DNA from: Gammaproteobacteria bacterium
GTDB taxonomy: Bacteria; Pseudomonadota; Gammaproteobacteria; SZUA-229
Direction of reading: 5' to 3'
Length of the DNA stretch: 64,000 bases
NCBI GenBank assembly: GCA_030595325.1
Contig: JAUVDN010000002.1
Coordinates: 705 to 64,704 of the forward strand
Shown: in pieces, positions 1 through 54,079 of the stretch
How positions within the stretch are numbered: the stretch's first letter is position 1
Layout of the letters: each line of letters opens with the position of its first letter
Program-made: the position numbers and the translations under genes
The notes under the pieces: model-generated
Databases searched by the model: none
What the model saw: the letters and a program-made list of their open reading frames with translations, nothing else
What the model was told of the DNA's origin: nothing

Positions 1-521
1 GCCACAGCTACCTTGGTCATTTTTATTTTATCGGTGTTATCTCGCTTCATCTTCCATGCTGCACTGAGTCGTTTAGACTTCATTTGGCTTTCTTCAAAGG
101 CTCGGCTCATTATCACAATTGAAATGAATAATTCGTTTGTATTTAGGTTTTCATATTCATATTTCATGCCGTCTGAAAGTGTTACAATCGTTATTTGTTT
201 TTCAAGAATGGATAAAAAAAGTTTAAGAGCAGTGGGTACGCTTTGTCTTGATAGTCGGTCAAGATTTTCAACGATTAAATATGAGCCTGCGGAGATAACA
301 CCTGTTTCAATTGCTTGTAGAAAATCAGCCAATGCGCCTTGTTCAGCATTTTTTCCTTTGTATGCGCTAACGCCTTTATCATATAGCGAAAGAGATGTGT
401 CCATAATCAAATTGTTTTCCTTGCAATACAATTCAGACATTTCTTTTTGGCGTACGAGTGAGTTGCCTTTAATTTGTTCAGGTCTTGAAAACCTGATGTA
501 ACTATATGCTTTTATAGGCAT
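1..521 (-). CDS. Serine recombinase (resolvase/invertase-type catalytic domain); 5' end intact, 3' end runs off the window
   Basis: Absent from the ORF track because there is no stop inside the window. Reverse-strand translation from the ATG at 521-519 reads MPIKAYSYIRFSRPEQIKGNSLVRQKEMSELYCKENNL...GSYLIVENLDRLSRQSVPTALKLFLSILEKQITIVTLSDG. The YxRxSxxxQ nucleophile motif, GNSLxRQ and VENLDRLSR are serine-recombinase hallmarks. AAAGG lies 6 nt upstream of the ATG. The + strand ORF 13..501 is its antisense shadow. Confidence 0.8.
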   Translation of the reverse strand, partial: MPIKAYSYIRFSRPEQIKGNSLVRQKEMSELYCKENNLIMDTSLSLYDKGVSAYKGKNAEQGALADFLQAIETGVISAGSYLIVENLDRLSRQSVPTALKLFLSILEKQITIVTLSDGMKYEYENLNTNELFISIVIMSRAFEESQMKSKRLSAAWKMKRDNTDKIKMTKVAV

Positions 522-546
522 TATTGACCTTTGTGATATTTATAAT

Positions 547-1599
547 ATGAGACCAGTCCATCTTCTAACCGTAATAGAAAAAGAGTTTTTAAGTGCTTCT
601 GAACATAAGGGGTTAATATACCACACCCCTGTGATGTTGTGGGGTGCGCCAGGTGTTGGCAAATCGCAGATGGTGGCTCAGGTTGCCGAACGGCAAAACA
701 CACCACTGATTGATATCCGTTTGTCACAGATGGAGCCCAGTGACCTGCGCGGCATTCCATTTAAAGTAGGTGATACTGTCGAATGGGCAGTGCCTGCGAT
801 GTTACCTAATGCAGAGCGTCACGGTAACAACGGTATTTTATTTCTCGACGAAATTACGTCAGCTCCGCCCAGTGTGTCAGCTGCTGCGTATCAATTAATT
901 CTTGATAGAAAACTAGGTGAGTATGAAGTACCTGATGGCTGGGCGATTATTGCTGCAGGTAACAGGCAGGGTGATCGTGGTGTGACCTACAGCATGCCCG
1001 CACCGTTAGCGAACCGTTTCTCGCATTATGAAGTTGATATCAATCTGGATGACTGGGTTGCATGGGCTTATGCTAATGGCATCGACGAACGTGTTATTGC
1101 CTTTTTGCGTTTTCGTCAGGATCTATTGTTTGAGTTCGACGCATCGCAAAATCCAGTGGCGTTTCCTTCACCGCGTTCGTGGGAATTTGCACATCGTGCA
1201 TTACATAAATTTGAAGACTACCCTGAACTGTTTTCAGGTGCATTACAGGCCTGTGTAGGAAAAGCGGCCGGAATCGAACTGGCGGCATTTATCGCCAGTC
1301 TGGATCAGTTGCCGGATCTTGACGCTATCATCAAAGGCGAAGAAGTTGATACACCCAAAGAAATCGATTTACAGTATGCGGTAGCAACTGCGTTGGTTGG
1401 TCGTGCTATCCGTGCCAAAGATACGGATGATGCGATGAAGGTTCACGGAAATATTTTAACTTACGCCAACCGTTTCCCGCAGCGTGAAATGGGTGTGATG
1501 ATGGTTTCAGATATGCATCGTGCTATTGGACAGGATATTTTTTCAGTGCCGGAGTTTGCCAGTTGGGCTGACAAGATTGCTGACTTGATGCTTTATTAA
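547..1599 (+). CDS. MoxR-like AAA+ ATPase (AAA_5 / CbbQ-NorQ-CobS-like)
   Basis: Walker A GAPGVGKS, Walker B ILFLDEI, sensor-1-like IIAAGN, about 350 aa. Followed by a VWA-domain gene, the usual MoxR partner. Confidence 0.85.
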   Translation: MRPVHLLTVIEKEFLSASEHKGLIYHTPVMLWGAPGVGKSQMVAQVAERQNTPLIDIRLSQMEPSDLRGIPFKVGDTVEWAVPAMLPNAERHGNNGILFLDEITSAPPSVSAAAYQLILDRKLGEYEVPDGWAIIAAGNRQGDRGVTYSMPAPLANRFSHYEVDINLDDWVAWAYANGIDERVIAFLRFRQDLLFEFDASQNPVAFPSPRSWEFAHRALHKFEDYPELFSGALQACVGKAAGIELAAFIASLDQLPDLDAIIKGEEVDTPKEIDLQYAVATALVGRAIRAKDTDDAMKVHGNILTYANRFPQREMGVMMVSDMHRAIGQDIFSVPEFASWADKIADLMLY

Positions 1600-1602
1600 A
1601 GC

Positions 1603-1696
1603 AATGAATAACGAATAATGAATAGTGAATAATTAGAAGCTAAAAATATGGTTTATTCTCTCAGCATTATTCAGTATTCAGTATTCAGTATTCATT
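1603..1696. repeat. Inverted pair of NTGAATA heptamer arrays (32-nt arms, 30-nt spacer) between the AAA+ and VWA genes
   Basis: Left arm 1603-1634 is aatgaataacgaataatgaatagtgaataatt. Right arm 1665-1696 is cattattcagtattcagtattcagtattcatt. The reverse complement of the right arm matches the left arm at 27 of 32 positions by hand alignment. Confidence 0.75.
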
Positions 1697-1704
1697 AAGC
1701 TGTT

Positions 1705-2964
1705 ATGTCTAGCTTCCCCGATGTTGAACAAAAACTTGCTGCAGCCAGAATACGTTTAATTCTGGACAAGCCTTTTCTAGGCGCGCTGGTTTTACGACTA
1801 CCGATGGTGGCCGGTGATTCCAAATGGTGTGAGTCAACCTTCAGTGACGGTAAAACATTTTATTACAATCACGATTACATCGATGCTCTTGATCAAGAGC
1901 AGACGCAATTTGCGCTTTCACATGAAGCGCTGCATTGTGCACTTTCACATTTTCATCGCCGTGGCCATCGGGTAAAACACCGTTGGGACCTGGCCTGCGA
2001 TTATGCGGTTAACCCTCTATTAATAAATGATGGCTTAAAGCCGACACCCGATGCCATGCACCTTCGCGAATATGAGGGTATGACGGCGGAAGAAATCTAC
2101 CCTTGTCTCGAAGATAATGATAATGATGGCGAACGGGATTTAGAAAGTAAAAAGCAATCTGATAATGCTGATAGTGATGATGAACAATCAAGTCAGGGCA
2201 ATGGCGGTGGTGGCAAGGAAAAGGAAAAACAAAACGACGAGCAGAGTGAAGGTCAGGGCGAACAGGATAAAGATCAGGATGATGCGGGTAAGGGTGGCTC
2301 AACGCCGCAACCAGCAGGATTGTCTCAGCAAGAAGAGGATGAGTTAAGTCTGCAATGGGAGCAACGTCTGGCAGGCGCTGCACAACAGGCATTACAGTCA
2401 GGTAAGTTAGAAGGTGAAATGGCTAGAATGGTTGATCATCTGCTGCAGCCAAAACTACCCTGGCGCATGTTGCTTGCACGTTATATGTCAGCCACCGCCA
2501 GGGAAGATTACAGTTATACAAGACCTTCATCACGCCGTGGAGATCCGGCGGTTTATCCGAGTATGCGTAGCAACGAGACTAATATCGTTGTTGCTGTTGA
2601 TACCAGCGGTTCGATAGACCAGGAAGAAATCGAAGAATTTATTTCAGAGATCGATGCAATAAAAAGTCAGGTGCGTGCCAGTGTTACGCTGCTTACTTGT
2701 GATTCAAAATTAAATTATGGTTGTCCCTGGTTTTTTGAGGCATGGGATCAGTTTCAGTTTGACGTGGAGATTCGTGGCGGTGGTGGCACAAACTTTAAAC
2801 CAGTTTTTGAGTGGGTCGAAAAGCAGGATAAAGCACCAGATTTACTGGTTTATTTTACTGATGCAGATGGTGTGTTTCCAGAAGTTGAACCAAATTTCCC
2901 TGTGACATGGTTGGTCAAGGGTAAATCAAAAGTGCCTTTCGGTGTAAGGGTTCAGTTAAATTAG
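1705..2964 (+). CDS. VWA-domain protein with N-terminal putative Zn-metallopeptidase domain (DUF2201-type architecture)
   Basis: HExxH motif (SHEALHCALSHFHRRGH), MIDAS DxSxS motif (VVAVDTSGSID), and a roughly 80-residue acidic/Gly low-complexity insert (DNDNDGERDLESKKQSDNADSDDEQSSQGNGGGGKEKEKQNDEQSEGQGEQDKDQDD). Sits downstream of the MoxR ATPase. Confidence 0.75.
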   Translation: MSSFPDVEQKLAAARIRLILDKPFLGALVLRLPMVAGDSKWCESTFSDGKTFYYNHDYIDALDQEQTQFALSHEALHCALSHFHRRGHRVKHRWDLACDYAVNPLLINDGLKPTPDAMHLREYEGMTAEEIYPCLEDNDNDGERDLESKKQSDNADSDDEQSSQGNGGGGKEKEKQNDEQSEGQGEQDKDQDDAGKGGSTPQPAGLSQQEEDELSLQWEQRLAGAAQQALQSGKLEGEMARMVDHLLQPKLPWRMLLARYMSATAREDYSYTRPSSRRGDPAVYPSMRSNETNIVVAVDTSGSIDQEEIEEFISEIDAIKSQVRASVTLLTCDSKLNYGCPWFFEAWDQFQFDVEIRGGGGTNFKPVFEWVEKQDKAPDLLVYFTDADGVFPEVEPNFPVTWLVKGKSKVPFGVRVQLN

Positions 2965-4089
2965 ATGGCACTTTCAGCAGAAGATAACTTACGTCTAAAC
3001 GTTTTGCTTGCGCAAGAGCTTTATGCTGTGCGTATCGATGAATCAAAGATGATTGTCTACGCATTAACCGCTAAAGGTGAGGCAAAGGTTCCTCTCAATG
3101 CGATAGGTAAAGACGATCCTTATTTAAAAGAGATTAAAGCATTATTTAGTACCCATGTAATGGGATCTCCTGGCGGTTATCCTGTCTATCTGAAGCGATG
3201 GACACGTATGGGGCAGGCGCGTGATGATAGTCTCGCGCAATTGTTATTGCTCGGCGAGCCTGAAGCAGTTGTGGCAGCAGTGCATGCACCAGGCTTAACT
3301 GATGAGATGGCAGCGCGAGCTTGGTGGGCAATGCCAACGTCAGAAAATGCAAGACGCATGTTGGAGAAACAAGCTGTCGTCGAAGGCGAGACGGGAAAAG
3401 TGCTAGCGGAATTCTTACTGGAGTTCTTACCGTTTGAAGAAGAGCAGAGTGATATGATTGATTCTGTTCGACTTGTGTTGCAGCCAGGGCTCATCAGTCA
3501 GCAAGAGAAAGATAAACTCTGGAAAAAAACAAAATCAAAGCGAAGTTTCTATGTTGGTTTTTTACATGCTGCAGCAGATGATCTACCGATTGATGTGGCT
3601 GCTCATGCTGATTATGAAACGGTTAAAGAGAAACTGCTTTCTTTAATCGAGAAAGAAAATCCATATGCAATAATGTTGGAAAAAGTATTAAGTGAAAATG
3701 GTCAGGCTTTTGTCCAAACAGTAGAAGATGCAATTAAGAAGCCGGGTAATCAGGATGTTGTGGTTTCGTTATTGTCCGCTGTAGCGAAATATTTTGAAAG
3801 TATTGTTCCAGATGTATTTACAGAGGATGACGTTGAAATTATCCGTACTGAAGCTAATGCGTTATGTTGTGGTGATAATGAATCTCTTAACGAAGTACTT
3901 GCCGTGCTTAATGATTCAAATGATAAAGTTCAGGATTATCTCTGCGCCATGACTGTATTGGCTTGTTTGAGTGTCAAACTGGTTAATCCTATCTTTGCTC
4001 GTACTGATGCTATTGGTACAGTGATGCGTAAAAAAATAAAACCGGTAACAGATCCTATACTAGAACAACTCCAAATACTGCGTAACTAA
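2965..4089 (+). CDS. Hypothetical protein (374 aa), no recognisable motif; start abuts the VWA gene stop
   Basis: Long ORF on the same strand. Its ATG at 2965 immediately follows the TAG at 2962-2964. Composition is protein-like, with no TM segment or signal peptide apparent. Confidence 0.6.
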   Translation: MALSAEDNLRLNVLLAQELYAVRIDESKMIVYALTAKGEAKVPLNAIGKDDPYLKEIKALFSTHVMGSPGGYPVYLKRWTRMGQARDDSLAQLLLLGEPEAVVAAVHAPGLTDEMAARAWWAMPTSENARRMLEKQAVVEGETGKVLAEFLLEFLPFEEEQSDMIDSVRLVLQPGLISQQEKDKLWKKTKSKRSFYVGFLHAAADDLPIDVAAHADYETVKEKLLSLIEKENPYAIMLEKVLSENGQAFVQTVEDAIKKPGNQDVVVSLLSAVAKYFESIVPDVFTEDDVEIIRTEANALCCGDNESLNEVLAVLNDSNDKVQDYLCAMTVLACLSVKLVNPIFARTDAIGTVMRKKIKPVTDPILEQLQILRN

Positions 4090-4098
4090 AATTTAAGT

Positions 4099-4638
4099 AT
4101 GCGATTTGATAAAGTACTTATTATCATTGATGTGCAATTGAAGGCCGATCAATTACAGCAATATTTGCCCTGTTCAGTAAATATTATCGGTAGAACATTG
4201 GCTGCGATTGCTGATGAATACGAAAAAGAAAACAAAACCGGTTACTACCCTGCAATTGATTTCTTTAAGAAGCTGGATAGCGTTGATCCTGATTTAATTG
4301 CATCAGCAGAACAGGTGGCATGGCTGGTGGCAAAGTTGGCACGTGAAACCATCCAGTTAAAATTACGTCCTATCTTTTCATCTGTGCAAATTCAATCGAT
4401 TCAGACGCTTGCGTTTTCTTTGCCTAAGATCCGTCCAAACAAAGCAGATGCTATTGATCAGCTTGCAAAGCATTACACGCCAGACAGTGTGAAAATAGAA
4501 CTTGTGCTTACTATGATGCGTCGTGATTCAGAATCAGAAGACAATCGTGCTGTGTTGTACGCAAGAAAGATGATGTTTCGTTGGTTGGAGTCAGAATTTG
4601 AAATGATTGAGGTGACTAGCTCTAAGTCTTTGCAGTGA
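4099..4638 (+). CDS. Hypothetical protein (179 aa), no recognisable motif
   Basis: Same-strand ORF starting 9 nt after the previous stop. No clear SD sequence. No motif recognised. Confidence 0.5.
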   Translation: MRFDKVLIIIDVQLKADQLQQYLPCSVNIIGRTLAAIADEYEKENKTGYYPAIDFFKKLDSVDPDLIASAEQVAWLVAKLARETIQLKLRPIFSSVQIQSIQTLAFSLPKIRPNKADAIDQLAKHYTPDSVKIELVLTMMRRDSESEDNRAVLYARKMMFRWLESEFEMIEVTSSKSLQ

Positions 4639-4649
4639 ATTTAATATTA

Positions 4650-4991
4650 TTAAAGCAGTAACTTATATTCATCGTCTTTAAAACCAATCAGTATTGCATT
4701 TCCACTTTCGAGTACGGGACGTTTTATCGCGCTTGGGTTTTCCAGCATAACTTTTATCGCTGACTTTTCATCAATGTTGTTTTTGATGTCGTCACCAAGT
4801 TTTCGCCAGGTGGTTCCGCGTTTATTTAGTACGATTTCCCAACCCGCTTTTTGAATCCATTGTTTCAGGCATTTCTCAGGCACGCCCAGCTTTTTATAAT
4901 CGTGGAATTCGTATTTCAGATTATTGTTATCTAACCACTTGCGAGCTTTCTTCATGGTGTCGCAATTAGGAATGCCGTATATTTTAATCAT
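4650..4991 (-). CDS. yffB: ArsC/Spx-family glutaredoxin-like protein (YffB-like)
   Basis: MIKIYGIPNCDTMKKARKWLDNNNLKYEFHDYKK...RGTTWRKL...IKRPVL closely parallels E. coli YffB. The track ORF starts at 5015, but Met9 (4991) matches the family N-terminus. The position next to dapD is conserved. Confidence 0.8.
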   Translation of the reverse strand: MIKIYGIPNCDTMKKARKWLDNNNLKYEFHDYKKLGVPEKCLKQWIQKAGWEIVLNKRGTTWRKLGDDIKNNIDEKSAIKVMLENPSAIKRPVLESGNAILIGFKDDEYKLLL

Positions 4992-5012
4992 AGTATTCTG
5001 CTTTATATCACA

Positions 5013-5041
5013 CATAAACCCCTCTCCCTATGGGAGAGGGG
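5013..5041 (-). terminator. GC-rich perfect hairpin followed by a T-run (minus strand) downstream of dapD
   Basis: cccctctccc-tat-gggagagggg at 5019-5041 gives a 10-bp perfect stem with a 3-nt loop. On the minus strand it is followed by TTTATGTG. Confidence 0.5.
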
Positions 5042-5061
5042 CGGGGTGAGGGTATGATTAT

Positions 5062-5886
5062 TTAATCAATATCACGCAGTAATTCATTTAAGCCAGTCTT
5101 ACCACGAGTTTTTTCATCTACCTGTTTAACGATTACTGCGCAGTAAAGACTGTATGTACCGTCTTTGGATGGTAGGTTACCGGATACAACAACAGAGCCG
5201 GCTGGTATGCGACCGTATGAAATTTCACCGGTCATACGATTAAATATTTTTGTGCTTTGGCCGATGTAGACACCCATTGATATAACAGAGCCTTCTTCAA
5301 CGATAACACCTTCTACAACTTCTGAGCGTGCACCGATGAAACAGTTGTCTTCAATAATAGTTGGAGAGGCCTGTAGTGGTTCTAAAACGCCACCAATGCC
5401 AACACCGCCAGAGAGGTGAACGTTTTTACCTATCTGTGCACATGAGCCGACTGTTGCCCAGGTATCGACCATAGTGCCGGTATCAACGTAAGCACCAATG
5501 TTTACGTATGACGGCATCAGTACTACGCTTGGCGCAACATAAGAACCAAAGCGAGCTGTTGCTGGTGGTACCACGCGGACACCTGATTCACGAAATTCTT
5601 TTGTGTTTAGGTCGGCAAATTTGGAATTAACTTTGTCGTAGTAATTGGTGAAGCCGCCTTTGATAAATTCGTTATCATTGATGCGGAAAGAAAGCAACAC
5701 TGCTTTTTTCAACCATTCATTGACTACCCAGTCGCCATCAATTTTTTCAGCGACACGTGCTTCACCTGAATCGAGTAAGTTTACCGCCTGTGTAACAGCA
5801 TCAGAGATGTGTGTTTCTACGTTACGTGGTGTGATATCGGCGCGGCGTTCGAATGCTTCTTCTATTATGCTTTTTAATTCAGACAT
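5062..5886 (-). CDS. dapD: 2,3,4,5-tetrahydropyridine-2,6-dicarboxylate N-succinyltransferase
   Basis: 274 aa with hexapeptide-repeat C-terminal half, a typical DapD N-terminus ([20 protein letters not shown]) and the [34 protein letters not shown] region. Confidence 0.93.
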
Positions 5887-37783: not shown

Positions 37784-39988
37784 CTATTTTGAGGTGTGGG
37801 TGAAGCTGCCGTCCCAGTCTGCATCAGGAGGGGTTTCACGGTAATGCATGATACGATCGAGGTAAATTTTATAAATCTTGCGGTCTGGGTCTAGCTGACT
37901 GAGGCCAAAGATTTCTCTTTCAGCCGCGTCCCAGTTCTGTGCGCGGTACTGCTTAATACCGATATGGAATTGCTTGAGCAGTTTTCGGTCAGATTTTGAA
38001 ATATTTTCCAATAAACCCAGTGGTTCGTAGATGGTAACGGGTTTCTTTTTACCCTTAACGCGTACCCGATCGAGTTCGCGGAATTCAAATTCTGGAACTT
38101 CGTGGCGGGTGAATTCACTGGTGATGATATCCACACCGTAGATTTTGGTTAAGCCTTCAAGCCGTGAGCCGAGGTTCACGGAATCACCTAGTACGGTGTA
38201 ATCCACCCGGAACTCTGAACCTTTGTTACCGACATTCATGATTCCGCTACTTACACCGACGCCAACATATATTTCTGGCCACTGTTTTTCGGAAAATTCC
38301 TTTCTTAAGGGGGTCATGCGCTCGACGACGTCGATGGCCGCATTTAGCGCGTGCAGAGCATGCTGCTTATCATCTAGTGGGGCTCCCCAGAATGCCATAA
38401 CGCAATCGCCCATGTATTTATCTATGGTGCCGCGATTGTCATGAATAACCTTTGTAATCGGCGTTAAGAATGCATTGATGTAATCGGTTAGCTCTTTTGG
38501 TTCCAGACCTTCAGAGATAGTGGTAAAACCACGCACATCAGAAAATAAAACAGACATTTCGCGCATTTCACCATCGAGACTGATTTCTTCCATCTTTACA
38601 CTTATTTCATCAACCAGTTCCGGTGGTACGTATTGACCGAAGAGGTGAGCGAGTCGTCGTTTACCACGTGATTCAACGAAGAAGCCATAGGTCATCTGCA
38701 GAGCAAACAACATAACAACGAGTACGACGGATGAAGCTATGGGCAGTACAAGTTGCGCGCTCGTCCAGGCGTAAAAATTAGTGCCGATTAACAGGAGGAT
38801 ACTGCCAATGATAATCAGTGTGGAAAACAGTGCAGAGAGCATTGGCAAGGTGAAAGTCAGGAGGATACCTATAGCGATGATTAAAATAAATTCAAAGCCT
38901 TGCGTGTAACCTGGTGCGTGTAATATTCGTCCATCGAGTATGCCCTGAATGATATTGGCATGCACTTCAACTCCTGGATAAGCAGGTTCGAGAGGAATGG
39001 TTCGCAGATCGAGTAAACCTGGTGCAGAAGTACCAAAGAGTGCAATTTTTCCTTGTAGCTTTGTTTTATCCGCTATTTTATTTAAGACGTCACTTGCTGA
39101 AATATAATCGAAGCTTTTTTGTCTGCCGATGTAAGGGACCAGTATGCCGGATTGATGGTCGACCGGGATGGCTAGTTCACCGATAGTTATCCATTCCAGA
39201 AAAAGATCGTAGGTATCACTGGTTTCTACAACCAGTTCTATAGGCGGTTGACCGGAAGCGACTCTTGCTAAAGCTAAAGCCAGCGACTCATGTAATTCAT
39301 TTTCATATGTCTGCAGTAGTGGTACACGTCTAAACACACCGTCGTCATCTAATAATGGGTTATTGAAAAAACCGCCACTGTAGGCGCTATCCTGAAGCAC
39401 TTTCAGGTTTGCGGTATAACCAACCGTTTTATTTACGGCTAGTTTAGAGAGAATATTTTTATCCAGTTTGGTTATAGCAGTGGGCAGGCCACCTTTTTTT
39501 GTATCGGTGTCCATCACGAAACCCATGACAGTTTTTCTGTCTCTTAAGGATTCTGCAAAACGCAGGTCGTGTTGTAGTGAGGGCATCACCTGATTGTATT
39601 CTTCGATAAATAGAGGGTCGTCCTTCAGCGAACCTTTTGCCATCTTATCGAGCAACTTGGCACCTTCATCGACATCTTCTTCGGCAAACACGATATCGTA
39701 ACCGATGGTTGTAATCTCGTAGTGATCAAATAGAGCATCATTTATTTTTGCGAGAATATTACGGTTCCATGGCCATTGTCCTATTACTTCAAGACTCTTT
39801 TCATCGATATCGATGATGATTACTTTCTTATCGACGTTTTCTGGCAGGGTGATTTTGAGTCGCGCATCATAAGCCTGATTTTCCAGGCTGGTTAAAATCG
39901 GGATATGGATTATATTTCCTACGTGAAGCAGAAATACAAGCGTAAGCAAAAGACTTAATGCGTATCGAATAATTCGTTGAATATCCAC
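37784..39988 (-). CDS. CHASE2-sensor class III adenylate/guanylate cyclase
   Basis: N-terminal TM followed by a CHASE2-type extracytoplasmic domain (IIDIDEKSLEVIGQWPWNR), a TM cluster, then the cyclase domain (SVLFSDVRGFTTISE...KYMGDCVMAFWGAP...NLGSRLE). GTG start. Confidence 0.85.
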   Translation of the reverse strand: MDIQRIIRYALSLLLTLVFLLHVGNIIHIPILTSLENQAYDARLKITLPENVDKKVIIIDIDEKSLEVIGQWPWNRNILAKINDALFDHYEITTIGYDIVFAEEDVDEGAKLLDKMAKGSLKDDPLFIEEYNQVMPSLQHDLRFAESLRDRKTVMGFVMDTDTKKGGLPTAITKLDKNILSKLAVNKTVGYTANLKVLQDSAYSGGFFNNPLLDDDGVFRRVPLLQTYENELHESLALALARVASGQPPIELVVETSDTYDLFLEWITIGELAIPVDHQSGILVPYIGRQKSFDYISASDVLNKIADKTKLQGKIALFGTSAPGLLDLRTIPLEPAYPGVEVHANIIQGILDGRILHAPGYTQGFEFILIIAIGILLTFTLPMLSALFSTLIIIGSILLLIGTNFYAWTSAQLVLPIASSVVLVVMLFALQMTYGFFVESRGKRRLAHLFGQYVPPELVDEISVKMEEISLDGEMREMSVLFSDVRGFTTISEGLEPKELTDYINAFLTPITKVIHDNRGTIDKYMGDCVMAFWGAPLDDKQHALHALNAAIDVVERMTPLRKEFSEKQWPEIYVGVGVSSGIMNVGNKGSEFRVDYTVLGDSVNLGSRLEGLTKIYGVDIITSEFTRHEVPEFEFRELDRVRVKGKKKPVTIYEPLGLLENISKSDRKLLKQFHIGIKQYRAQNWDAAEREIFGLSQLDPDRKIYKIYLDRIMHYRETPPDADWDGSFTHTSK

Positions 39989-51391: not shown

Positions 51392-54079
51392 TTAGCCCTT
51401 GTTTTCTGCTGCCATGATTTTCAGACATTTGTTGATATCTTCAACCATTTCTTTACCGCGCTGGTAACGTTTTTCGACGTCTTTTTCCATTGCGCGATTG
51501 ATGATAACAGTGACGCAGCGTGGTAGCTCAGGATTAATGGTTTCTGGGCTTTGGTGCGCTTCGTTGGCAATTTTGTACATCAATGAGGCCATTGAATCGC
51601 CAGTGAAAGGCAGTTTACCGGTAACCATCTGGTAGAGCATGACACCGAGCGAAAAGATGTCTGACTGACCGGTAACTTTTTGTCCGGCTAATTGTTCTGG
51701 TGACATGTAGGAAGGTGTACCTAAAACCATGCCTGTTTTTGTTTTGCTGGAGTCGGTGATGCGTGCAATACCAAAATCAGTAATTTTACATTCATCGGTT
51801 TCAGGGTCCCACATGATGTTTGCGGGTTTGATATCACGATGAACTACGTTGTTCTGGCTGGCATAATCGATACCATCGGCAGAGCGCTGGATAATAGATA
51901 GCACCTGTTTCAATGGCAGTATGGTATCGGGTTTTATATATTTGCTTAGATCAGTTCCTTTCAGGTATTCCATGGCGATGTAGGCGAGGTCGTGTTCTTC
52001 ACCGGCATCAAAGATAGTAACGATGTTTGGATGATTCAGACGACCAGCAGTTTCAGCTTCACGGAAGAATCGCTCTTTAACCTCGTCCAGTTCGTCATCT
52101 TCAAACTCTTGCGACAAGGCCATGGTTTTGATTGCAACGACACGTGAAATTTTAGGGTCTTTACCCAGATAAACAGCGCCCATGGCGCCTTTACCCAGTT
52201 CGCGTTCCACTTCGTAACGGCCAAGCATTGGTTTTTCAACACCGCCACCTTCTATTATTAGGGTGCCGCCAGGTGAGGAGCCGCCACCACCGCCAAGAAT
52301 AACGGTTTCTTCTAGCGACTGGGCACGGTTAGAGCGCGTCTTGATATCACGGAATTTGTCATCGAACTCAGTCATGCAGTCGTACACTGATTTGGCTTTG
52401 TTGAACTGGCGTTTGCGCTCAAAATCCAGTGCCAAATTATAGAATAATTCCATTACAGATTTATCCATTGGCAGCTTGCGGAATTTTTCAAACGCCATAT
52501 CCAGTTGTCCCTGTCCTTGCAGCGACAGACCCAGCATGCGGTTGCTTTCGGCAGATTCAATATCAAGTCTCGCTTTGCCTTTCTCAGACATAAAGAAGCG
52601 TTTAGTGGTTAATAGTATGTGCCCACCTGCGAGTAGCAGGGCAGGCATCATCAGCTGTAGCCACATGCCTTGCGTAGTCATCATAATGTAGTGAATGATA
52701 AATAAGGCGAATAAAGTGATACCGGTGATAGCAAAACCGACAACAGCATTTAGTTTTGGCAGTAGCAGCATGAGATACAGCGCAACTAAAAGAAAGGCGC
52801 CTATTCGAGCATAAAAGCCCCACTCAGGCTCAACGAAAAAATCTTCGTTAAGAATACTTGAGACGGAATGCGCCAGTGTCACCACGGGTGACATAGTCGG
52901 GTCGATTGGTGTCACAAAAGTATCACCAACACCCAGAGCGGTTGCACCAATCAGGACAATTTTGTCTTTGTACTTATCAGCAGGAATCTTGCCTTGCAGT
53001 ACATCAAAGAATGAGTCGATAGGAAAGGCGCTTTTAAAATCTTCATCGTGGTAGAAGAAGGTGTTCATTAACGAGTAACCATCTGTTTTGATGTTCAGGC
53101 GCCCTAGCTGCACATCTGAACCAACAGTAATCTGAATGTCATTAATGTCCAGATTTAAACCTTTCGCTGCTAACATCAACGCCATTGACGGGTAGAGGTC
53201 ACCATAATAATCGATAATAAGCGGTTCGGTGCGAATGCCGCCATCAACATCGGGCAGTGCGACTAAAGCACCAATAGCATTCGCCTGTTCACCCAGGATA
53301 GCTATCGGCAGGTAAGCATCACTCATCGGTAGCGGCTGGAAACCTTCCGGGTTAGTAATAGAGTTATCTATAATATTGTCTTCGAGTAATCGGTTCTGGG
53401 TTACATAGTCTGGAAATGGATTATCCGGCTCACCAAAAGGTGTGCCTGGTACGTAGGGCATATTGAACACGACATTGCCGGCATTTTGCATGCTCTGGGC
53501 AAGTATATTGTCTGTATCCAGAATGGTCTCAGCTGAGTTTATGTACTCCATGTATGCGGCTAGCTCTTCAGCAACCTGATTGCGTAAGGGAGACGCTTCC
53601 AGTGTGTCAGCAATATTATCAACGGCAGTTTTGCCATTAGCATCACGTTTGTCTTTGACCAGTTCACGGCTGCTTTCAATAACTTCGGCAAGTTCTTCAA
53701 CATAGCCTGGCACGCCAGAGATGCTGCTTTCTTCAAAGGCTTGTCTTAGTTCACGAAGAAAATGCAGGCCGGGATCAAGTTGAGGTTCTGAAAAAAATAC
53801 GGTTTGACCAACGGCTTTGGCGCCACCTTCGGCGAGGATGTCATGCATCTGTGCGTGAATATCACGAGACCAGGGCCAGCGACCTATGTTGGCAATACTT
53901 TGGTCATCGATTGCGATGATGGCTATCTTGTCACTTGCGAATCGATTCGATGATTTGACACCGAAATCGTATGCGTTTCGTTCCATGCTGGCGATAAAGT
54001 CAGAGCCAGAAAGTGTCAGAAAAATAAATGTAATGATAAGACCGGTAAACCAGTCACTTTTTAAAACTCCGCTCTTCAT
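51392..54079 (-). CDS. CHASE2-sensor Ser/Thr protein kinase
   Basis: N-terminal TM followed by CHASE2 (IIAIDDQSIANIGRWPWSR), a TM cluster, a linker with a Gly-rich tract, then a Hanks kinase domain (GKGAMGAVY, VAIKTM, HRDIKPANIM, DFGIA, GTPSYMSPE). Confidence 0.88.
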   Translation of the reverse strand: MKSGVLKSDWFTGLIITFIFLTLSGSDFIASMERNAYDFGVKSSNRFASDKIAIIAIDDQSIANIGRWPWSRDIHAQMHDILAEGGAKAVGQTVFFSEPQLDPGLHFLRELRQAFEESSISGVPGYVEELAEVIESSRELVKDKRDANGKTAVDNIADTLEASPLRNQVAEELAAYMEYINSAETILDTDNILAQSMQNAGNVVFNMPYVPGTPFGEPDNPFPDYVTQNRLLEDNIIDNSITNPEGFQPLPMSDAYLPIAILGEQANAIGALVALPDVDGGIRTEPLIIDYYGDLYPSMALMLAAKGLNLDINDIQITVGSDVQLGRLNIKTDGYSLMNTFFYHDEDFKSAFPIDSFFDVLQGKIPADKYKDKIVLIGATALGVGDTFVTPIDPTMSPVVTLAHSVSSILNEDFFVEPEWGFYARIGAFLLVALYLMLLLPKLNAVVGFAITGITLFALFIIHYIMMTTQGMWLQLMMPALLLAGGHILLTTKRFFMSEKGKARLDIESAESNRMLGLSLQGQGQLDMAFEKFRKLPMDKSVMELFYNLALDFERKRQFNKAKSVYDCMTEFDDKFRDIKTRSNRAQSLEETVILGGGGGSSPGGTLIIEGGGVEKPMLGRYEVERELGKGAMGAVYLGKDPKISRVVAIKTMALSQEFEDDELDEVKERFFREAETAGRLNHPNIVTIFDAGEEHDLAYIAMEYLKGTDLSKYIKPDTILPLKQVLSIIQRSADGIDYASQNNVVHRDIKPANIMWDPETDECKITDFGIARITDSSKTKTGMVLGTPSYMSPEQLAGQKVTGQSDIFSLGVMLYQMVTGKLPFTGDSMASLMYKIANEAHQSPETINPELPRCVTVIINRAMEKDVEKRYQRGKEMVEDINKCLKIMAAENKG

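What the first reader, a model, noticed from the sequence alone, without database searches (positions are those of the whole stretch)
1..4638. Serine-recombinase-linked MoxR AAA+ / metallopeptidase-VWA cassette with two unassignable partner genes
Seen: a serine recombinase (-) and an AAA+ ATPase (+) are back-to-back. Four same-strand genes follow:
- an AAA+ ATPase with intact Walker A/B
- a protein combining HExxH, an intact DxSxS MIDAS VWA domain and a roughly 80-residue acidic low-complexity insert
- a 374-aa ORF whose ATG directly abuts the VWA stop (2964/2965)
- a 179-aa ORF 9 nt further on
I can place no motif in the last two. The block ends 11 nt from the conserved yffB-dapD-dapC housekeeping block.

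Established: MoxR-VWA couples are ATP-driven chaperone/insertase pairs (NorQ/NorD, CbbQ/CbbO, CobS/CobT, RavA/ViaA). Comparative-genomic work has proposed them as cores of NTP-dependent conflict systems with variable third components.

Inference: this is accessory cargo at the end of a recombinase-mobilised element. The two unknown proteins would be the specific clients or effectors. It is the best candidate in this window for an undescribed system.
Basis: partly seen in the sequence, partly recalled or inferred. Interest (0 to 1): 0.7.

Follow-up and report, generated by a model that had tools for sequence, protein, structure and literature searches.

The report
Conserved MoxR–VWA–DsrS sulfur-oxidiser gene block
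The four genes are not cargo of a mobile element but a chromosomal block inherited vertically in sulfur-oxidising Gammaproteobacteria, and its 374-aa "unknown" is DsrS, a sulfur-oxidation protein of unresolved function that here sits beside a MoxR-type ATPase/VWA chaperone pair, which gives a testable lead to what DsrS does.

Summary
The main inference is not. In 87 related loci, 80 of them from distinct species, no recombinase homologue lies near the block. In the nearest relative (DsrS 91% identical) a Sel1-repeat gene sits where the window has the recombinase, and DNA similarity to relatives begins at about the ATPase start codon.

The 374-aa ORF is DsrS. A 51%-identical homologue occupies the canonical dsrP-dsrN-dsrR-dsrS position. 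NCBI names a 47%-identical homologue DsrS. Published genome papers report dsrS lying outside the dsr cluster in several chemotrophs.

AAA_5 ATPase, DUF2201 metallopeptidase-VWA protein and DsrS form a module:
- both ATPase and VWA genes are present upstream of dsrS in 44 of 69 informative loci, and never one alone
- the module is kept in at least four different neighbourhoods
- the three proteins co-diverge (r about 0.9)
- there are no relatives of DsrS in plasmid, phage or viral-contig collections

The 179-aa ORF is an optional DsrS neighbour, present in about half of the loci.

Best reading (inferred): a dedicated MoxR/VWA remodelling chaperone of the Dsr sulfur-oxidation pathway, with DsrS as adaptor or client. 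No held paper mentions both DsrS and MoxR.

The parts
1..521 (-). 5' part (173 codons) of a large serine recombinase/integrase gene, cut by the window edge. It is a neighbour, not part of the module, and marks where synteny with relatives breaks.
   Evidence: Pfam Resolvase E=2.2e-17; phrog_95 integrase 5e-23; 42-46% identical to Burkholderia, Pseudomonas and Escherichia phage serine integrases. There is no homologue in 87 related loci. DNA similarity to relatives starts only at about 535-547.
547..1599 (+). MoxR-class (AAA_5) AAA+ ATPase, 350 aa. It is the most conserved gene of the module.
   Evidence: AAA_5 at 43.4 bits and phrog_1297 at 4e-97. Walker A and B are present in 47-48 of 49 aligned sequences, the window included; one row is truncated and one diverges at Walker B. 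It is 92% identical to L001. Mean pairwise distance is 0.23, against 0.45 for DsrS. The nearest solved relatives are midasin AAA domains (3e-9), NorQ (7e-5) and CbbQ (1e-3).
1705..2964 (+). DUF2201_N (zincin-like HExxH domain) + acidic low-complexity linker + DUF2201 VWA domain with a MIDAS motif, 419 aa. It is the presumed adaptor of the ATPase.
   Evidence: Pfam 149 and 92 bits; phrog_1314 at 3e-88. HEALH is at 73-77 and DTSGS at 299-303. MIDAS is invariant in 49 of 49 sequences, while HExxH is degenerate in 5-6 of 49. There is no PDB sequence match.
2965..4089 (+). dsrS: 374 aa, 41.5 kDa, pI 4.9, an all-alpha helical-repeat-like protein with a small N-terminal beta-sheet and no conserved Cys or His.
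4099..4638 (+). ORF4: a 179-aa alpha/beta protein of unknown function, an optional downstream companion of dsrS.
4650..5015 (-). ArsC-family (yffB-like) gene, the start of the ArsC-dapD-dapC housekeeping block. It is the conserved right flank in the closest clade only.
   Evidence: Pfam ArsC at 8e-22. The same flank is found in L001, L003, L012-L014, L016, L018 and L020. DapD is present in 8 of 65 loci with at least 3 kb of downstream sequence.

Best explanation
Window 547-4638 is a vertically inherited chromosomal gene block of sulfur-oxidising Gammaproteobacteria. It encodes a MoxR-class AAA+ ATPase, a DUF2201 metallopeptidase-VWA adaptor, DsrS, and an optional 179-aa companion.

Shown:
- The block is not tied to the recombinase.
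- ORF3 is orthologous to the gene at the dsrS position of the dsr operon.
- ATPase, VWA and DsrS are kept together in several different neighbourhoods and co-diverge.

Inferred mechanism, by analogy with NorQ/NorD and CbbQ/CbbO: the ATPase forms a ring that pulls on the VWA protein, whose invariant MIDAS site grips an acidic residue of a partner. DsrS is an acidic, cofactor-less helical scaffold. It would be either the pathway-specific adaptor that brings a Dsr component to the machine, or the protein that is itself remodelled. The most plausible Dsr component is the siroheme-containing reverse sulfite reductase DsrAB or its partners. The effect would be on the amount or activity of Dsr proteins.

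The serine recombinase belongs to a separate integrated element, or to a rearrangement, that in this genome alone replaced the usual Sel1-repeat neighbour immediately upstream of the ATPase gene.

Sub-confidences: not recombinase cargo 0.9; ORF3 = DsrS 0.9; trio functionally coupled 0.7; client is in the Dsr pathway 0.4.
For: Synteny without a recombinase:
- L001, L089 and the 80 species loci all lack one.
- A recombinase homologue occurs in 0 of 87 loci.
- DNA similarity to relatives starts at about position 535-547.

DsrS identity:
- L077 has the order DsrP-N-R-S.
- NCBI and UniRef name homologues DsrS.
- Published genome papers report dsrS lying outside the dsr cluster in Thioalkalivibrio, Sulfurifustis and Sulfuricaulis.
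- The record titles of the related loci name sulfur oxidisers.

Coupling of the trio:
- Both ATPase and VWA are upstream of dsrS in 44 loci, neither in 25, and only one in none, out of 69 informative loci.
- The trio is kept in different contexts: L083, L087 and L088.
- Pairwise-distance correlations are 0.88, 0.91 and 0.87.
- Presence of the pair is clustered on the DsrS dendrogram, with 9 state changes against 31.9 expected at random.
- Spacing is tight: start and stop codons abut in the window, and the ATPase and VWA genes overlap by 8 nt in L083 and L088.

Link to Dsr and siroheme:
- CysG siroheme synthase and a glutaredoxin follow the block in about 30-36 loci.
- The tail of a dsr operon lies 7 kb away in L087.

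Scaffold nature of DsrS:
- The model is confident but has no enzyme-like fold match and no conserved Cys or His.

Known behaviour of MoxR/VWA pairs: PMC9976466 and PMC13036017 for NorQ/NorD, and PMC4660213 for CbbQ/CbbO (abstracts listed).
Against: - No experiment links these proteins.
- In 25 of 69 loci dsrS lacks the pair in the same neighbourhood. In the canonical operon context, L077, no pair is nearby. DsrS can therefore work without an adjacent pair. Whether those genomes encode the pair elsewhere was not tested.
- The window holds no other dsr gene, so Dsr metabolism in this organism is inferred from its relatives.
- The ATPase and VWA families are also common in lytic phages, next to replication genes. 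The pair is therefore not intrinsically a sulfur-metabolism device.
- I could not compare ORF3 directly with A. vinosum Alvin_1265.
Confidence: 0.6

Rival explanations
1. The ATPase-VWA pair is a self-contained two-gene unit, possibly phage-derived, with a function unrelated to Dsr. It landed between the Sel1-repeat gene and dsrS in an ancestor and has simply been inherited there. The adjacency to dsrS would be historical, not functional.
For: - The pair is present or absent as a unit between the same flanking genes: 44 loci with it against 25 without.
- It matches phage families strongly end to end (phrog_1297 at 4e-97, phrog_1314 at 3e-88).
- Homologues occur in 544 phage records.
- One relative has a PDDEXK_3 gene inserted inside the pair.
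Against: - The trio travels together into unrelated neighbourhoods that lack the Sel1 gene: L083 after ilvA and L088 after CbbQ/CbbO.
- The three proteins co-diverge, with r about 0.9.
- There have been few gain or loss events.
- The ATPase is under stronger constraint than DsrS.
- No close relative occurs in 2.9 million viral contigs.
- Phage homologues of the VWA protein are only 25-34% identical.
Confidence: 0.2
2. The trio is a functional chaperone module, but its client lies outside the Dsr pathway. It could be another metallo- or tetrapyrrole enzyme or Rubisco. DsrS would then be a more general regulator or adaptor that only sometimes sits in dsr operons.
For: - In L088 the trio directly follows a CbbQ/CbbO Rubisco-activase-type pair.
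- In many loci it is followed by glutaredoxin and CysG rather than dsr genes.
- In the window it lies next to dapD and dapC, with no dsr gene in 64 kb.
- The function of DsrS is described as unresolved (PMC3368242).
Against: - A homologue occupies the terminal position of a dsr operon.
- The related loci come from organisms whose record titles name sulfur oxidisers.
- A dsr operon tail lies 7 kb away in L087.
- CysG makes siroheme, which from established knowledge is the cofactor family of DsrAB.
Confidence: 0.15
3. One reading: the four genes are accessory cargo, a candidate defence or conflict system, at the end of an element mobilised by the adjacent serine recombinase.
For: - The recombinase start codon is only 25 nt from the ATPase start codon, in divergent orientation.
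- The recombinase resembles phage integrases.
- MoxR-vWA cores do occur in proposed conflict systems (PMC7159879).
Against: - 0 of 87 related loci have the recombinase.
- The block sits in the same chromosomal place in relatives.
- The break in similarity falls at about the ATPase start, so the block is outside whatever the recombinase belongs to.
- PADLOC gives only weak P-loop matches of 23 bits or less.
- The bpMoxR model scores 18.2, below its cut-off of 27.
- No VMAP, iSTAND, FtsH or beta-propeller partner is present.
- DsrS is absent from plasmids, phages and viral contigs.
Confidence: 0.03

Closest known systems
DsrS, the last gene of the dsrABEFHCMKLJOPNRS operon of Allochromatium vinosum
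   Same: ORF3 belongs to the same family. A 51%-identical homologue follows dsrP-, dsrN- and dsrR-like genes, and NCBI names a 47%-identical homologue DsrS. It has a similar size and no known domain. The literature already notes that dsrS often lies outside the dsr cluster in chemotrophs.
   Different: Here, and in 44 of 69 informative loci, dsrS sits directly after a MoxR ATPase and a VWA protein rather than after dsrR. None of the held papers mentions both DsrS and MoxR. I made no direct comparison with the A. vinosum protein.
NorQ/NorD and CbbQ/CbbO (MoxR AAA+ plus VWA chaperone pairs)
   Same: A P-loop AAA_5 ATPase is encoded next to a protein with a MIDAS-bearing VWA domain and an acidic linker. 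The expected mode of action is ATP-driven remodelling of a specific metallo-enzyme client (PMC9976466, PMC13036017, PMC4660213).
   Different: - Sequence similarity is remote: NorQ at 7e-5 and CbbQ at 1e-3, and 33% identity over 83 residues to a CbbQ.
- There is no CbbQ_C domain.
- The ATPase is 350 aa, with a C-terminal half of about 190 residues that matches no Pfam family.
- The VWA partner carries an N-terminal zincin-like HExxH domain (DUF2201_N), which to my knowledge NorD and CbbO do not have.
- The conserved third gene is dsrS.
Phage ATPase + DUF2201 pair (PHROG 1297 and 1314; for example N4-like Acinetobacter phage XC38 gp61 and gp59)
   Same: The two domain architectures are the same and the genes are adjacent, with full-length profile matches.
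   Different: The phage copies are 25-34% identical and sit in the replication module next to helicase and polymerase genes. They have no dsrS or ORF4. Their function is unknown, and they are annotated 'HNH endonuclease', probably wrongly.
MoxR-vWA ternary conflict systems (Kaur et al. 2020, PMC7159879)
   Same: A MoxR-vWA core with a conserved third component.
   Different: - The third component is none of VMAP, iSTAND, FtsH or beta-propeller.
- There are no variable effector domains.
- The genes are single-copy, vertically inherited and highly conserved rather than diversifying.
- The bpMoxR model scores below its threshold.

Membership tests
DsrS | A homologue occupies the dsrS position, directly after dsrR at the end of a dsr operon | tested here: met
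   L077 has DsrP-like 54-935, DsrN-like 1143-2528, DsrR-like 2561-2872 and the ORF3 homologue 2906-4030, all on the + strand. The homologue is 51% identical over residues 3-374.
DsrS | Curated or automatic naming of close homologues as DsrS | tested here: met
   P0268 (47% identical, E=4e-89) is QKT04024.1, 'sulfur reduction protein DsrS'. P0118 (80% identical) is UniRef 'Sulfur reduction protein DsrS'. No HMM exists for the family: 0 of 95 family members hit any NCBIfam model.
DsrS | Direct sequence similarity to Allochromatium vinosum Alvin_1265 | not tested
   The reference sequence could not be obtained with these tools, and the papers describing it (PMC545617, PMC2832516) are not held.
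DsrS | The host genome encodes the oxidative Dsr pathway (rdsrAB and the rest) | tested here: inconclusive
   No DsrN, DsrR or DsrP homologue occurs in the 64-kb window. The rest of the genome cannot be seen. The relatives are sulfur oxidisers by record title.
MoxR-class AAA+ (Pfam AAA_5) | AAA_5 domain above threshold with intact Walker A and B | tested here: met
   43.4 bits against a cut-off of 22. GAPGVGKS and ILFLDE are present in 47-48 of 49 aligned sequences.
MoxR-class AAA+ (Pfam AAA_5) | Encoded next to a VWA/MIDAS partner | tested here: met
   The VWA gene starts 105 nt downstream. Both genes are present or both are absent in 69 of 69 informative loci.
MoxR-class AAA+ (Pfam AAA_5) | Hexameric ring and ATPase activity | not testable with these tools
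   Needs biochemistry or a multimer prediction.
NorQ/NorD or CbbQ/CbbO orthologues | CbbQ_C/NorQ-type C-terminal domain and close similarity to NorQ or CbbQ | tested here: not met
   There is no CbbQ_C hit. Identity to a CbbQ is only 33% over 83 residues. PDB NorQ scores 7e-5 over the P-loop core only.
DUF2201_N + DUF2201 (metallopeptidase-VWA) family | Both Pfam domains above threshold, with HExxH and MIDAS motifs | tested here: met
   149.1 and 91.9 bits. HEALH and DTSGS are present. MIDAS is kept in 49 of 49 sequences and HExxH in 43-44 of 49.
MoxR-vWA ternary conflict systems (Kaur et al. 2020) | Third component is VMAP, iSTAND, FtsH or a beta-propeller, with variable effector domains | tested here: not met
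   The third gene is dsrS, and the fourth is a small alpha/beta protein. bpMoxR scores 18.2 against a cut-off of 27. The definitions are from PMC7159879.
Known anti-phage defence systems (PADLOC-DB 2.0) | Significant match of any of the four proteins to a defence-system model | tested here: not met
   Only P-loop-level hits of 23 bits or less for the ATPase. There is nothing for the VWA protein or ORF4, and a 14-bit chance hit for ORF3.
Cargo of a serine-recombinase-mobilised element | Recombinase and cargo co-occur in other genomes, and the block is absent from the empty site in relatives | tested here: not met
   A recombinase occurs in 0 of 87 loci. The block is present at the same site in relatives.
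Cargo of a serine-recombinase-mobilised element | Element ends or att sites enclosing the block | not testable with these tools
   The window cuts the recombinase gene at position 1. The exact-protein look-ups did not return the source contig, and the one hit was a 1.4-kb Logan contig.

The most novel reading that the evidence does not exclude
DsrS is the substrate-specifying third subunit of a dedicated MoxR/VWA remodelling machine. The machine matures, repairs or regulates the reverse dissimilatory sulfite reductase system, for example by inserting or exchanging the siroheme or siroamide cofactor in DsrAB. It would be a sulfur-cycle counterpart of NorQ/NorD for nitric-oxide reductase and CbbQ/CbbO for Rubisco. 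From my own recollection of the literature, which I could not check here because the papers are not held, dsrS mutants oxidise sulfur more slowly and show apparently post-transcriptional effects. This reading would explain that.
Probability: 0.3. Interest if true: 0.7.

Novelty: new variant of a known kind. Interest (0 to 1): 0.45.

Why it matters
Dsr-based sulfur oxidation is a major route of the marine and sedimentary sulfur cycle. DsrS has been a named gene whose function is described as "still not resolved" (PMC3368242).

A conserved, co-diverging linkage of dsrS to a MoxR ATPase and a MIDAS-VWA adaptor gives a concrete biochemical hypothesis. It points to specific experiments:
- interaction of the VWA protein with DsrS and with DsrAB
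- ATPase-dependent activation of the target
- knock-outs in a sulfur oxidiser that has the trio

It would also give the widespread but uncharacterised AAA_5 + DUF2201 pair, which is also common in phages, its first proposed cellular context.

For the scan itself, the result is a caution. A recombinase lying next to a gene block is not evidence that the block is its cargo.

Tried and rejected
Recovering the DNA left of the window:
- Exact-protein look-ups for the ATPase and for P0001 found nothing.
- P0121 gave only a 1.4-kb Logan contig.
- The element that carries the recombinase therefore could not be delimited.

Annotation and structure searches that gave nothing useful:
- PADLOC, NCBIfam and Pfam give nothing for ORF3 or ORF4.
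- A PDB profile search with 95 DsrS sequences gave no hit better than E=0.077.
- The afdb50 library was unavailable.

Technical dead ends:
- The 95-sequence alignment was too diverse for the locus scan, so I repeated it with 30 sequences.
- The first ten cluster look-ups gave no informative names. The second ten gave the DsrS name.
- The papers on DsrS and DsrR genetics (PMC2832516, PMC545617) are not held.

Other negative results:
- The promoter and terminator scan of 1-5200 was no better than shuffled sequence, so I make no claim about operon boundaries.
- I first expected dsr genes upstream of the ORF3 homologues that lack the pair. Most of those loci instead have the Sel1 neighbourhood, and only L077 has the operon context.

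Full report
**1. The observation**

- A minus-strand gene starts at 521 and runs off the window.
- Plus-strand ORFs lie at 547-1599 (350 aa), 1705-2964 (419 aa), 2965-4089 (374 aa; its ATG abuts the preceding stop) and 4099-4638 (179 aa; 9 nt further on).
- An ArsC-family gene on the minus strand follows 11 nt later, then dapD and dapC.

The truncated minus-strand product is a serine recombinase.
- It matches Pfam Resolvase at E=2.2e-17 and PHROG integrase at 5e-23.
- It is 42-46% identical to phage serine integrases.

The ATPase is an AAA_5 protein with Walker A GAPGVGKS and Walker B ILFLDE.

The 419-aa protein is DUF2201_N + DUF2201 (149 and 92 bits). It has HEALH, a DTSGS MIDAS motif and an 84-residue insert rich in D, E, Q, G and S.

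The last two ORFs have no significant hit in Pfam, NCBIfam, PHROGs or PADLOC.

**2. The block is not tied to the recombinase**

The 374-aa protein has more than 4,500 database relatives. Apart from the exact match to the window's own protein, the 120 best listed are 373-377 aa long and 78-91% identical. That is the signature of a core gene of an abundant lineage.

Evidence from related loci:
- In a relative (L001) the order is ATPase-(PDDEXK_3)-VWA-374-180-ArsC-dapD-dapC, with no recombinase.
- A scan of one genome per species found at least 540 species with a relative and returned 80 loci. The record titles name Thiotrichaceae, Thiohalobacter, Thiogranum, Thiohalophilus, Thioploca, Ectothiorhodospiraceae and Thioalkalispiraceae.
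- tblastn of the window's proteins against all loci gave no recombinase hit in 87 loci.
- The nearest relative found (L089; DsrS 91% identical, ATPase DNA 90% identical) has a 259-aa gene and a Sel1-repeat gene upstream of the ATPase.
- Nucleotide similarity between the window and any relative begins at about position 535-547, which is the ATPase start.
- None of the usual left-hand neighbours has a homologue anywhere in the window. These are the Sel1-repeat protein, a 192-aa protein, DUF6866 and a 2OG-Fe(II) oxygenase.

The recombinase therefore marks an insertion or rearrangement, specific to this genome, immediately upstream of the ATPase gene. The four genes lie outside it.

The rest of the window is ordinary chromosome: a class I (Trp/Tyr-type) tRNA synthetase, SMC, RNase E and signalling proteins.

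**3. ORF3 is dsrS**

- UniRef names an 80%-identical homologue 'Sulfur reduction protein DsrS'.
- NCBI gives the same name to a 47%-identical, full-length homologue in a complete Ectothiorhodospiraceae genome.
- The decisive test is position. In L077 a 51%-identical homologue (residues 3-374) directly follows DsrP-, DsrN- and DsrR-like genes on the same strand. This is the canonical dsr...PNRS order (PMC4205035 abstract; PMC10892978 Table 9).
- Genome papers already report dsrS lying 'elsewhere in the genome' in Thioalkalivibrio, Sulfurifustis and Sulfuricaulis.
- The A. vinosum genome paper calls the function of DsrS 'still not resolved' (PMC3368242).
- I could not obtain the A. vinosum sequence, so that direct comparison is missing.

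**4. The trio is a module**

Clustering of all ORFs around the 80 loci shows a widely conserved arrangement:

acetyltransferase(-), 2OG-Fe(II) oxygenase(-), DUF6866(-), 192-aa protein, Sel1-repeat protein, [ATPase, VWA], DsrS, [ORF4], glutaredoxin, CysG siroheme synthase.

Evidence that ATPase, VWA and DsrS belong together:
- Of 69 loci with at least 3.6 kb upstream of dsrS, 44 have both ATPase and VWA, 25 have neither, and none has only one.
- The trio also occurs in unrelated contexts. It follows ilvA in L083, where DsrS is about 36% identical. It follows a CbbQ/CbbO-like pair in L088. In L087 the tail of a dsr operon (DsrR-, DsrN- and DsrP-like genes) lies 7 kb downstream, convergently oriented.
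- Pairwise distances of the three proteins correlate at 0.87-0.91.
- The ATPase is the most constrained of the three, with mean pairwise distance 0.23, against 0.37 for VWA and 0.45 for DsrS.
- Presence of the pair is clustered on the DsrS dendrogram, with 9 state changes against 31.9 expected at random and a random minimum of 19. This implies few gains or losses.
- DsrS has no relative in the phage, plasmid or viral-contig collections, and the ATPase has no close relative in viral contigs.

ORF4 is a real family with invariant residues. A profile search finds it in 39 of 81 eligible loci, and in 36 of those it lies directly after dsrS. It occurs with or without the ATPase-VWA pair. I regard it as an optional DsrS companion.

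**5. What the proteins look like**

- DsrS models with pLDDT 94.5 and pTM 0.90 as an all-alpha, repeat-like protein with a small N-terminal sheet.
- DsrS is acidic (pI 4.9) and has no conserved Cys or His. It is unlikely to be a redox or metal enzyme and looks like a binding scaffold.
- In the VWA protein the MIDAS motif is invariant, but HExxH is degenerate in 5-6 of 49 homologues. Peptidase chemistry may therefore be dispensable.
- The ATPase is only remotely related to the solved MoxR-class proteins: midasin 3e-9, NorQ 7e-5 and CbbQ 1e-3, and 33% identity over 83 residues to a CbbQ.

**6. Mechanism (inferred)**

By analogy with NorQ/NorD and CbbQ/CbbO (PMC9976466, PMC13036017, PMC4660213):
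- The ATPase ring would act through the VWA adaptor, whose MIDAS site binds an acidic residue of a partner.
- DsrS would be the pathway-specific adaptor or the remodelled client.
- The recurring neighbours CysG (siroheme synthesis) and glutaredoxin, and the proximity of a dsr operon in L087, point to the siroheme-containing Dsr machinery as the ultimate target.

Nothing here shows this directly.

The main rival is that the pair is an unrelated, anciently inserted unit. Its families are abundant in lytic phages, next to replication genes. Against that rival stand the movement of the trio into new contexts and the co-divergence of its three proteins.

**7. Comparison and novelty**

- The block is not a member of the published MoxR-vWA conflict systems. 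Its third component is different, and the bpMoxR model scores below threshold.
- It matches no PADLOC system.
- It is a MoxR/VWA pair of the uncharacterised AAA_5 + DUF2201 type, joined to dsrS.
- No held paper mentions both DsrS and MoxR, and only one held paper mentions both DUF2201 and AAA.
- I rate it a new variant of a known kind.
- Interest is moderate. The mobile-element and defence reading fails, but the linkage gives a testable handle on a protein whose function the A. vinosum genome paper still described as unresolved.

Noticed in passing
L001:8138-8512: In one relative a PD-(D/E)XK nuclease gene (PDDEXK_3, E=6e-43) is inserted between the ATPase and VWA genes. It is absent from the window and from the other loci.
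   Followed up: partly
L088:4691-7629: A CbbQ-type ATPase (AAA_5 + CbbQ_C) and a 707-aa VWA protein (CbbO-like) lie directly upstream of the AAA_5/DUF2201/DsrS trio. Two MoxR/VWA pairs are therefore in tandem.
   Followed up: no
L003-L082, about 7 kb upstream to 3 kb downstream of dsrS: A conserved neighbourhood occurs in about 60 species: acetyltransferase(-), 2OG-Fe(II) oxygenase(-), DUF6866(-), a 192-aa protein with no Pfam match and a Sel1-repeat protein upstream, and glutaredoxin and CysG downstream. None of these is in the window. Several of these genes have no known function.
   Followed up: partly
window 604-618 (ATPase residues about 20-24): The window's ATPase has a 4-codon insertion in its N-terminal region relative to all aligned relatives (SEHKGLIY against TQSG--HH).
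   Followed up: no
VWA homologues in L035, L066, L069, L070, L083, L087: The HExxH motif of the DUF2201_N domain is degenerate (H to K or Q, E to Q or D), while the MIDAS motif and the third His stay invariant. This suggests a non-catalytic role for the 'metallopeptidase' domain in some lineages.
   Followed up: partly
L079 (CAVYIJ010000017.1): The record is titled 'uncultured Halobacteria archaeon', but the contig carries the full gammaproteobacterial dsrS neighbourhood. The bin is probably mislabelled or contaminated.
   Followed up: no
L090 (Acinetobacter phage XC38, NC_055823.1 59490-62165): In an N4-like phage the homologous ATPase and DUF2201 genes flank a small ORF and sit next to DNA helicase and polymerase genes. 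The DUF2201 protein is annotated 'HNH endonuclease', which looks like a propagated misannotation that PHROG 1314 also carries.
   Followed up: partly
window 5018-5042 (-): A strong hairpin (11-bp stem, 8 G-C pairs) lies between dapD and the ArsC-family gene. It is terminator-like, although its T tail is weak.
   Followed up: no
window 37784-39988 (-) and 51392-54079 (-): Two large CHASE2-domain sensor proteins lie in the same window, one fused to an adenylate/guanylate cyclase domain and one to a Ser/Thr protein kinase domain.
   Followed up: no
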